Shown in pieces: positions 54,215 through 54,880 of a DNA stretch of 64,000 nucleotides. This DNA comes from the human T2T-CHM13v2.0 reference genome, Homo sapiens. Below the pieces are notes generated by a model. It was not told the DNA's origin. It did not search any database and saw only the letters and a program-made list of their open reading frames with translations. The translations under genes were made by a program, and so were the position numbers. Position 1 is the first letter of the stretch. Each line of letters starts with the position of its first letter. The DNA lies in NCBI RefSeq assembly GCF_009914755.1, contig NC_060935.1. One strand, written 5' to 3'.

Positions 54215-54529
54215 TTTTTTTTTTGTTGTTTTTTTGTTTTTTTTTTTTCGAGACAGGGTCTTGCTCTGTAACCAGGCTGGAGTGCAGTGGTGCGATCTCA
54301 GCTCACTGCAACCTCCGCCTTCCAGGTTAAAGCGATTCCCCCGCCTCAGCCTCCTGAATAGCCGGGACCACAGGTATGCGCCACCACACCTGGCTAATTT
54401 TTTTGTATTTCAGCAGAGACGGGGTTTCACCGTGTTGGCCAGGATGGTTTTGAACTCCTGACCTTGTGATTCGCCCGCCTCAGCCTTCCAAAGTGCTGGG
54501 ACTACAGGTGTGAGCCACTGCGCCCAGGC
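54215..54529 (-). mobile_element. AluS within the retrocopy (sense to the source mRNA)
   Basis: Antisense Alu with T-rich tail at 54215-54248; several T>C changes versus consensus. Confidence 0.9.
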
Positions 54530-54576
54530 TACAGCAGTGTCTTAAGTGTTTGGCATGAATACATGAAGAAATGGTC

Positions 54577-54880
54577 GGCCTAGCGTGGTGGCTCATGCCT
54601 GCAATCCTAGTACCCTGGGAAGCCAAGGTGGGCAGATCACCTGAGGTCAGGAGTTCCAGACCAGCCTGGACAACACGGTGAAACCCCGTCTCTACTAAAA
54701 ATAAAAAAATTAGCTGGGCGCGGCGGGTGCCTGAAATCCCAGCTACTCAGGAGGCTGAGGCAGGAGAATCGCCCGAACCCAAGAGGCAGAGGCTGCAGTG
54801 AGCCGATCATGCCACTGCACTCCAGCCTGGGCGACAGAGCGAGACTCCATCCACCCCCCCCCCCACCAAAAAAAGAAAGA
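54577..54880 (+). mobile_element. AluS within the retrocopy (antisense to the source mRNA)
   Basis: Full Alu flanked by AAGAAATGGT repeats; several T>C changes and a C-run at the tail junction. Confidence 0.9.

What the first reader, a model, noticed from the sequence alone, without database searches (positions are those of the whole stretch)
54215..54880. Fossilised A-to-I RNA editing: an ADAR-edited inverted-Alu mRNA apparently written back into the genome
Seen in sequence: both Alus of the retrocopy, although oppositely oriented, differ from Alu consensus by clustered T>C on the + strand, which is A>G on the retrocopy's mRNA strand. Left Alu sites: 54249, 54339, 54342, 54363, 54369, 54411, 54414, 54502. 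Right Alu sites: 54602, 54614, 54615, 54676, 54773, 54774. A few of these could be subfamily variants or differences already in the parent. mRNA-strand contexts are ADAR-like: UAG>UGG, CUACUAAA>CUGCUGAA, UUCAAGC>UUCGGGC, CCAAAG>CCAGGG, UUAC>UUGC. A C-run (54851-54867) also sits at the Alu tail junction. Established: genomic Alus decay mainly by CpG C>T/G>A; inverted Alus in 3' UTRs form dsRNA that ADAR edits; reverse transcriptase copies inosine as G. Inference: L1 machinery retrotransposed an already hyper-edited transcript, leaving a heritable snapshot of ancestral germline/embryonic editing. From memory, edited IRAlu mRNAs including LIN28 escape nuclear retention in ES cells, which would fit. 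I do not know whether this copy has been described.
Basis: partly seen in the sequence, partly recalled or inferred. Interest (0 to 1): 0.92.

Follow-up and report, generated by a model that had tools for sequence, protein, structure and literature searches.

The report
ADAR-edited LIN28A mRNA fossilised in DNA
This stretch is a genomic copy of the tail end of the LIN28A messenger RNA whose two inverted Alu repeats carry many one-directional A-to-G changes, likely RNA edits made before the message was copied back into DNA, which would make it and similar copies a heritable record of RNA editing in ancestral germ or embryo cells.

Summary
Confirmed and extended. Window 53666-55503 (minus strand) is a 5'-truncated retrocopy of the LIN28A 3' UTR, with a poly(A) tail and a perfect 15-bp target-site duplication. 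Counting only sites where parent and Alu consensus agree, its inverted Alus carry A>G at 13 of 98 A's. The mirror change T>C occurs at 1 of 101, and the flanks show A>G at 0 of 284. An older, independent LIN28A copy on chr2 shows 25 of 97 against 2 of 101 and shares 7 sites. Five DHFR copies with inverted Alus lean the same way (34 of 421 against 7 of 437, conservative count); one PAICS copy does not. A 5' U/A preference is present and 5' G is avoided, but the predicted 3' G enrichment is absent. The parent shows no A>G excess, and the host intron is read on the opposite strand, which argues against mutation in place. Best reading: L1 copied an ADAR-edited transcript (about 0.9). Primate orthologues could not be examined. 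Ten literature searches found no description.

The parts
53651..53665 (.). Target-site duplication, copy at the poly(A) end (15 bp)
   Evidence: 100% identical to 55504-55518 (family D9)
53666..53683 (-). Poly(A) tail of the retrocopy (T-run on +)
   Evidence: Sequence; homology to the parent stops here, about 15 nt after the AATAAA signal
53699..53708 (-). Overlapping AATAAA poly(A) signals of the LIN28A 3' UTR
   Evidence: Sequence; identical in the parent
53684..55503 (-). 5'-truncated retrocopy of the distal 1.8 kb of the LIN28A 3' UTR, no coding sequence, antisense within CSTPP1 intron 1
   Evidence: 98% to G000:C1:26265932-26267741 in the flanks; parent identity; host gene from the annotation supplied with the finding
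54215..54530 (-). Downstream Alu of the inverted pair (sense on the mRNA); body 54250-54530, tail 54215-54249
   Evidence: absent from older LIN28A copies on chr20 and chr13
54531..54576 (-). 46-nt spacer forming the loop of the predicted Alu duplex
   Evidence: Predicted fold of the parent RNA; matches the empty site in Alu-less copies
54577..54882 (+). Upstream Alu of the inverted pair (antisense on the mRNA); body 54577-54850, tail 54851-54882
   Evidence: the two parental Alus are 230 of 279 complementary
54249..54502 (-). A>G sites in the downstream Alu: 54502, 54414, 54411, 54369, 54363, 54342, plus 54249 (first A of the tail, outside the counted body)
   Evidence: Parent A = consensus A, copy G; 54502, 54414 and 54369 are also G in the chr2 copy
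54602..54774 (-). A>G sites in the upstream Alu: 54774, 54773, 54721, 54676, 54615, 54614, 54602
   Evidence: Parent A = consensus A, copy G; 54773, 54615, 54614 and 54602 are also G in the chr2 copy
54851..54867 (+). C-rich run (G-run on the mRNA strand) at the Alu tail junction; origin unexplained, excluded from the counts
   Evidence: the parent has a T tract then four A's, the chr2 copy a C/T microsatellite
55504..55518 (.). Target-site duplication, copy at the 5' truncation point; ends in TTTTC followed by AAA, an L1-endonuclease-like site (consensus recalled)

Best explanation
This is a retrocopy of the LIN28A 3' UTR whose inverted Alus carry a strand-specific excess of A>G, most likely because ADAR had edited that mRNA molecule before L1 machinery likely reverse-transcribed it into the genome. 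Steps: (1) two Alus inserted tail-outward, 46 nt apart, into the LIN28A 3' UTR (shown: older copies keep the empty sites). (2) The transcript is predicted to fold them into a duplex of about 280 bp. (3) ADAR converted roughly one in seven duplex adenosines to inosine (inferred from the substitution pattern). (4) L1 ORF2p primed on the poly(A) tail, copied about 1.8 kb and read inosine as G (retrotransposition hallmarks shown; inosine reading by ORF2p inferred from other reverse transcriptases). (5) The insertion became heritable, so this happened in the germline or early embryo (inferred), very roughly 5-17 million years ago. It is probably a neutral by-product, and its value is as a single-molecule record. 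The same process likely produced the chr2 LIN28A copy and at least some DHFR copies.
For: Window copy: A>G 13 of 98 against T>C 1 of 101 (p=6e-4) and against flanks 0 of 284 (p=1e-8). The chr2 copy has a different poly(A) site and 5' end and shows 25 of 97 against 2 of 101 (p=4e-7), with flanks at 7 of 292. Seven sites are shared (hypergeometric p=0.02), as expected for preferred editing sites. The parent branch shows 0 A>G among 86 A sites. DHFR copies, after dropping sites that are G in 3 or more of the 4 old copies: chr18 4/88 vs 0/92, chr3 15/84 vs 1/89, chr6 2/87 vs 0/91, chr2 6/86 vs 4/89, chr20 7/76 vs 2/76; sum 34/421 vs 7/437, p=7e-6. In the 99.4%-identical chr18 copy, 7 of 8 raw differences in the Alu pair are A>G. 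Pooled 5' neighbour over 7 copies: U 26/92, A 36/168, G 15/182, C 11/196. The (U/A):(C/G) rate ratio is 3.5, against 1.1 for ordinary A>G in 72 background Alus. In the window copy 0 of 13 sites follow a G, although 28 of 98 A's do (p=0.009); 5' G depletion is the ADAR signature reported in PMC2873906 (passages). Single-Alu copies show no clear excess (MRPS16 2/43 vs 1/31; POLR2D 2/28 vs 1/37). LIN28A and DHFR 3' UTR Alus are edited in human oocytes and early embryos (PMC5043600 Table S1 rows).
Against: 3' G enrichment is absent: 12 of 39 in LIN28A and 33 of 233 pooled, p=0.9. The window copy's 6 private sites alone give only p=0.054 against T>C, though p=2e-4 against its flanks. The PAICS copy with both Alus is negative (2/75 vs 1/63). 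Only 1 of 5 DHFR copies is individually significant in the conservative count. The chr3 DHFR copy also has an A>G excess outside its Alus (41/780 vs 18/624). Single-Alu controls are small. Pooled counts are not independent across copies of one parent. Ancestral states rest on a home-made majority consensus of 72 mixed-subfamily Alus and one outgroup copy, not on primate orthologues. Of 6 published DHFR editing sites, 3 are G in at least one copy, but only 1 of those 3 is a consensus A. The 2 published LIN28A sites could not be placed securely.
Confidence: 0.91

Rival explanations
1. The G's were ancestral in LIN28A, and the human parent later changed back to A by mutation or by gene conversion from other Alus.
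For: Seven sites are G in both LIN28A copies. The parent clearly changed at about 12 other Alu sites. Some DHFR sites that are G in 3-4 old copies probably are of this kind.
Against: It needs 7 non-CpG G>A returns to consensus with 0 mirror C>T returns. The parent keeps 46 non-consensus markers shared with the window copy, one within 1-8 nt of each shared site, which leaves no room for conversion tracts. It cannot explain the 18 of 90 private sites of the chr2 copy (p=6e-5) or the 6 private sites of the window copy.
Confidence: 0.03
2. The changes arose in DNA after insertion, through transcription-coupled A>G asymmetry or ADAR acting on R-loops or hairpins at the new locus.
For: Direct ADAR mutation of transcribed DNA has been proposed (PMC10209271, passages). 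The copy lies in a transcribed intron.
Against: CSTPP1 is read on +, so host-driven change would appear as T>C on the copy's mRNA strand; only 1 of 101 is seen. Flanks in the same intron show 0 of 284. The parent, transcribed with the same hairpin for longer, shows 0 of 86. All 7 LIN28A and DHFR copies, on different chromosomes and strands, lean towards their own mRNA strand.
Confidence: 0.03
3. Ordinary Alu noise: CpG turnover, subfamily variants or conversion from unrelated Alus.
For: Seven apparent A>G differences against the parent were of this kind and had to be removed. Three retained sites (54721, 54676, 54342) have G in 7-12 of about 72 background Alus.
Against: The other 10 sites have G in 0-4 of about 72 background Alus. 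No background Alu exceeds 3 A>G or 4 T>C, against 7 and 5 here and 6 and 14 in the chr2 copy. CpG decay gives G>A and C>T, not A>G.
Confidence: 0.02
4. L1 reverse transcriptase mis-incorporates C opposite A when copying through a long hairpin, with no prior editing.
For: It would also give a strand-specific change confined to the duplex. Not tested here.
Against: It would need an error rate of 13-26% for one substitution type only, with an ADAR-like 5' neighbour bias. The PAICS copy is negative. I know of no such behaviour (recalled).
Confidence: 0.01

Closest known systems
L1-made processed pseudogenes (retrocopies)
   Same: Poly(A) tail at the parent's cleavage site, 15-bp target-site duplication, 5' truncation, endonuclease-like target.
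   Different: It holds only 3' UTR, has no row in the supplied RefSeq table, and differs from its parent by a clustered one-strand A>G pattern rather than by neutral decay alone.
APOBEC3-edited endogenous retroelements (PMC2873906, passages read; PMC12548423, passages read)
   Same: A deaminase acted on a retrotransposition intermediate and the clustered changes were fixed in the genome.
   Different: There the change is G>A from C>U on cDNA, as defence against the element. Here it is A>G from editing of a cellular mRNA duplex. G>A in this copy is 7 of 144 against C>T 2 of 146, not significant.
A-to-I editing of 3' UTR inverted Alus, including LIN28A and DHFR (PMC4378195 passages; PMC5043600 supplement rows; PMC7942016 passages)
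   Same: Same substrate, same change, 5' G avoidance and 5' U/A preference.
   Different: Normally transient and seen only in RNA; here it is read from genomic DNA at a second locus. 3' G enrichment is not seen.
'Mutational replacement' or RNA-to-DNA recoding hypotheses (PMC10209271, passages)
   Same: Edited RNA information enters heritable DNA through reverse transcription.
   Different: Those ideas concern the edited gene itself. Here the parent shows no A>G excess (0 of 86); the edits are written only into new copies.
Retroprocessing of edited transcripts in plant mitochondria, and ADAR-hypermutated viral genomes (both recalled, not read)
   Same: An edited RNA is copied and inherited.
   Different: Other enzymes or substrates (C>U organellar editing; viral RNA), not nuclear mRNA retrocopies in primates.

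Membership tests
L1-made processed pseudogene | Target-site duplication | tested here: met
   15 of 15 bp identical, 53651-53665 and 55504-55518
L1-made processed pseudogene | Poly(A) tail where the parent mRNA ends | tested here: met
   Homology stops about 15 nt after AATAAA and is followed by an A-run absent from the parent locus
L1-made processed pseudogene | L1 endonuclease-like target and 5' truncation | tested here: met
   TTTTC then AAA at 55514-55521; the copy starts inside the last exon; consensus recalled
L1-made processed pseudogene | Loss of introns | not testable with these tools
   The copy lies wholly within the parent's last exon; the Alu-less chr20 copy does span exon junctions
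ADAR A-to-I hyper-editing | A>G on the transcript strand, without mirror T>C | tested here: met
   13 of 98 against 1 of 101
ADAR A-to-I hyper-editing | Confined to double-stranded RNA | tested here: met
   0 of 284 in the flanks; 28 of the 31 sites in the two LIN28A copies are paired in the predicted fold, though so are 65 of 67 unedited A's
ADAR A-to-I hyper-editing | 5' G depletion and 5' U/A preference | tested here: met
   0 of 13 sites after G (p=0.009); pooled U 28%, A 21%, G 8%, C 6%; ratio 3.5 against background 1.1. In the LIN28A pair alone no single base is significant
ADAR A-to-I hyper-editing | 3' G enrichment | tested here: not met
   12 of 39; pooled 33 of 233, p=0.9
ADAR A-to-I hyper-editing | Preference for A:C mismatches | tested here: inconclusive
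   Only 2 such A's in the duplex, 1 changed
ADAR A-to-I hyper-editing | Overlap with catalogued editing sites of the parent | tested here: inconclusive
   LIN28A: 2 published sites, not securely placed. DHFR: 3 of 6 published sites are G in some copy, 1 of these at a consensus A
APOBEC3-edited retroelement | Clustered G>A on the mRNA strand in GA/GG context | tested here: not met
   G>A 7 of 144 against C>T 2 of 146, p=0.10, mixed contexts

The most novel reading that the evidence does not exclude
Primate genomes hold an unrecognised, datable archive of ADAR editing: retrocopies of mRNAs with inverted Alus routinely preserve the edits of the single germline or embryo transcript that was copied. 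This would give editing levels and site preferences at many points over the last 30 or more million years, show that heavily edited mRNAs reached the L1 machinery in vivo, and mean that even an open-frame DHFR retrogene carries a hard-wired edited 3' UTR.
Probability: 0.7. Interest if true: 0.85.

Novelty: new variant of a known kind. Interest (0 to 1): 0.76.

Why it matters
Each such copy is one ancient mRNA molecule with its edits frozen, so ancestral germline or embryonic editing becomes measurable and datable: about 13% of duplex A's in this copy and 26% in the older chr2 copy. It bears on whether heavily edited inverted-Alu mRNAs escape nuclear retention in vivo, since L1 is thought to pick up its templates in the cytoplasm (recalled). 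It gives a concrete route by which RNA edits enter heritable DNA, while showing that the parent gene itself is not rewritten. In practice, such copies are traps for read mapping: edited LIN28A or DHFR reads can match the copy better than the parent. The 99.4%-identical chr18 DHFR copy has G at the published miR-125a-3p editing site.

Tried and rejected
Sites dropped before counting: 54339 (parental G); seven parent-side changes (54840, 54719, 54576, 54525, 54431, 54322, 54316); the tail-junction columns 54851-54855 and tail site 54249 (ambiguous or outside the Alu body). An automated recount that kept one junction column gave 14 of 99. In DHFR, sites G in 3 or more of the 4 old copies and a third partial Alu were dropped (raw counts).

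Catalogued LIN28A sites: supplements of PMC9772385 (files 25-33 of 33 not searched), PMC3637798 and PMC9704047 (one file cut when stored) gave none. PMC5043600 gave 2 sites, and no neighbouring-gene rows to fix the coordinate offset. Using a recalled gene end, the two sites fall on an AA pair that is GG in the chr2 copy and AA in the window copy (54262, 54261). This placement is not secure and is not used as evidence. PMC3903663 concerns a mouse construct and was irrelevant.

Generality: 6 of 7 PAICS copies fetched lack the Alu pair and the seventh is negative. None of 3 MRPS16 copies and not the 1 POLR2D copy fetched holds the parental inverted pair; a second POLR2D-family hit was not fetched. 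Cytochrome c copies were located but not examined. Other LIN28A copies (chr20, chr13 shown; several more by match spacing) lack the Alus.

Rejected: descent of the window copy from the chr2 copy (52 chr2-only flank changes, a chr2-only insertion, different poly(A) sites); an APOBEC3 signature; the C-run as an edit.

Full report
What is there. Window 53666-55503 on the minus strand matches G000:C1:26265932-26267741 at 98% outside the Alus. An upstream exon at that locus encodes 58 of 58 residues of LIN28A, so the match is the distal LIN28A 3' UTR. The copy ends in a poly(A) run about 15 nt after AATAAA. It is flanked by a perfect 15-bp duplication (53651-53665 and 55504-55518) and starts abruptly inside the last exon. 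These are the marks of L1 target-primed reverse transcription (established knowledge). It lies antisense in CSTPP1 intron 1 and has no row in the supplied annotation. Older LIN28A copies on chr20 and chr13 keep the empty sites, so the two Alus entered the parent UTR later, 46 nt apart and inverted. They are 230 of 279 complementary, and the parent RNA is predicted to fold into one long duplex.

Checking the observation. Raw comparison gives 23 A>G among 126 parental Alu A's, against 1 among 303 flank A's, but part of this is CpG decay in the parent. I built a majority consensus from 72 other Alus in the window and fetched loci and counted only sites where parent and consensus agree. The result is A>G at 13 of 98, mirror T>C at 1 of 101 (p=6e-4), and A>G at 0 of 284 flank A's shared with the outgroup copy (p=1e-8). 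At 205 stable consensus positions, no background Alu exceeds 3 A>G or 4 T>C. The window's Alus have 7 and 5 mRNA-strand A>G, the parent's 0 and 1.

An independent replicate. A second copy at G000:C2:183.75 Mb also carries both Alus; I recall it as LIN28AP1, which no call confirmed. It extends further 5', uses a poly(A) site about 5 nt downstream, and has 52 private flank changes in 1139 sites, against 11 for the window copy and 10 for the parent. It is therefore a separate, older event. It shows A>G at 25 of 97 against T>C at 2 of 101 (p=4e-7), with flanks at 7 of 292. Seven sites are shared, more than the 3.4 expected (p=0.02). If those G's were ancestral, the parent would need 7 non-CpG returns to consensus with none on the mirror strand, each within 1-8 nt of a retained private marker. 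Private sites alone remain strong for chr2 (18 of 90 against 2 of 101, p=6e-5). For the window copy they are borderline against T>C (6 of 91 against 1 of 101, p=0.054) but clear against its flanks (p=2e-4). With a recalled rate of about 0.1% per million years, the window copy dates to roughly 5-17 million years and the chr2 copy to roughly 25-30; both dates are inference.

Other genes. Five DHFR copies hold the parent's inverted pair. After dropping sites that are G in 3 or more of the 4 old copies, A>G against T>C is: chr18 4/88 vs 0/92, chr3 15/84 vs 1/89, chr6 2/87 vs 0/91, chr2 6/86 vs 4/89, chr20 7/76 vs 2/76. The sum is 34/421 vs 7/437, p=7e-6, but only chr3 is significant alone. In the 99.4%-identical chr18 copy, 7 of 8 raw Alu differences are A>G, 4 of them at consensus A's. 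One PAICS copy with both Alus is negative (2/75 vs 1/63). Two single-Alu copies show no clear excess (2/43 vs 1/31 and 2/28 vs 1/37), but they are small. Gene names other than LIN28A rest on Pfam matches plus recall.

Sequence context. Pooled over the 7 LIN28A and DHFR copies, the change rate by 5' neighbour is U 26/92, A 36/168, G 15/182 and C 11/196. The U/A to C/G ratio is 3.5, against 1.1 for ordinary A>G in background Alus. No site in the window copy follows a G (0 of 13, p=0.009). Depletion of 5' G is the ADAR signature described in PMC2873906 (passages). The low 5' C rate may reflect later decay of newly made CpGs, since the young window copy keeps 5 such sites of 13 (inference). Pooled counts are not independent.

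Link to real editing. PMC5043600 Table S1 lists 2 Alu edits in the LIN28A 3' UTR and 5 in DHFR from human oocytes and early embryos (supplement rows; methods passages). PMC7942016 names a sixth DHFR site, the miR-125a-3p target (passages). Two registers put the five DHFR sites on A's within the Alus. I chose the one that also places the sixth site in a match to the recalled microRNA seed. In that register 3 of 6 sites are G in at least one copy, but two of the three are consensus-G positions, so this support is weak. The LIN28A sites could not be placed without a recalled coordinate. Unsearched or cut supplement files (PMC9772385 files 25-33, part of PMC9704047) and closed bioRxiv supplements could hold more sites.

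Mechanism. Shown: the retrocopy anatomy; the strand-specific, duplex-confined A>G excess; its recurrence in independent copies; and its absence from the parent branch (0 of 86). Inferred: that ADAR made the changes on RNA, that ORF2p read inosine as G (PMC5224506 states this for reverse transcription in general and reports that ADAR1 binds the L1 particle; passages), and that the event was germline or embryonic. The LIN28 inverted Alus are a standard nuclear-retention reporter (PMC4378195, passages). The ES-cell escape paper was seen only as a title in a reference list, and its content is recalled. Change in place after insertion is unlikely: host transcription runs on the other strand and would give T>C on the mRNA strand, and the flanks are clean.

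Novelty. Ten searches of the held library listed no paper that, by title and abstract start, describes ADAR-edited retrocopies or this copy; most listed papers were not opened. Passages were read in PMC2873906 (APOBEC-edited retroelements), PMC12548423 (an A>G excess in a mouse provirus, judged not ADAR-like), PMC10209271 (hypothesis of editing-driven mutation at the gene itself) and PMC3820591; none showed this case. The library lacks most subscription papers, so prior description is not excluded. I class it as a new variant of a known kind, the ADAR and mRNA counterpart of APOBEC-edited retroelements. It is expected in principle, but here it is visible, replicated and open to a genome-wide test.

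Verdict. Observation confirmed, interpretation supported at about 0.9, interest 0.76. The main gaps are primate orthologues, per-site editing data for LIN28A and a genome-wide scan.

Noticed in passing
L012 (G000:C2:183750000-183757000), Alus at about 3860-4490: Older LIN28A retrocopy with both Alus and a heavier A>G load (25 of 97); its 3' UTR is interrupted upstream by an L1 fragment at about 1190-2585.
   Followed up: yes
L029 (G000:C18:26.36 Mb): DHFR copy 99.4% identical to its parent; 7 of 8 differences in the Alu pair are A>G, including G at the published miR-125a-3p editing site. Likely to confound DHFR editing calls.
   Followed up: partly
L030 (G000:C3:96.757 Mb): DHFR retrocopy with no stop in the Pfam match (recalled as DHFR2/DHFRL1) carries the strongest DHFR signal (15 of 84 vs 1 of 89), and also an unexplained A>G excess outside its Alus (41/780 vs T>C 18/624).
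   Followed up: partly
window 54851-54867; L012 about 3820-3862: The tail of the upstream Alu differs in all three sequences: T tract plus four A's in the parent, a G-run in the window copy, a C/T microsatellite in the chr2 copy. The G-run could have grown by slippage from edited A's, but this is untested.
   Followed up: partly
window 54321-54611: Five non-CpG G>A changes on the mRNA strand within the Alus (54611, 54608, 54471, 54375, 54321); the total G>A excess is not significant (p=0.10).
   Followed up: partly
G000 chr2, 5, 7, 8, 13, 14, 20, 21, 1 and X: More than ten further LIN28A 3' UTR retrocopies at 71-91% identity, several with internal inversions; those examined lack the Alus and so predate them.
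   Followed up: partly
L038 (G000:C6:74.5 Mb): PAICS retrocopy with both parental Alus shows no A>G excess, so not every copied transcript was edited.
   Followed up: yes
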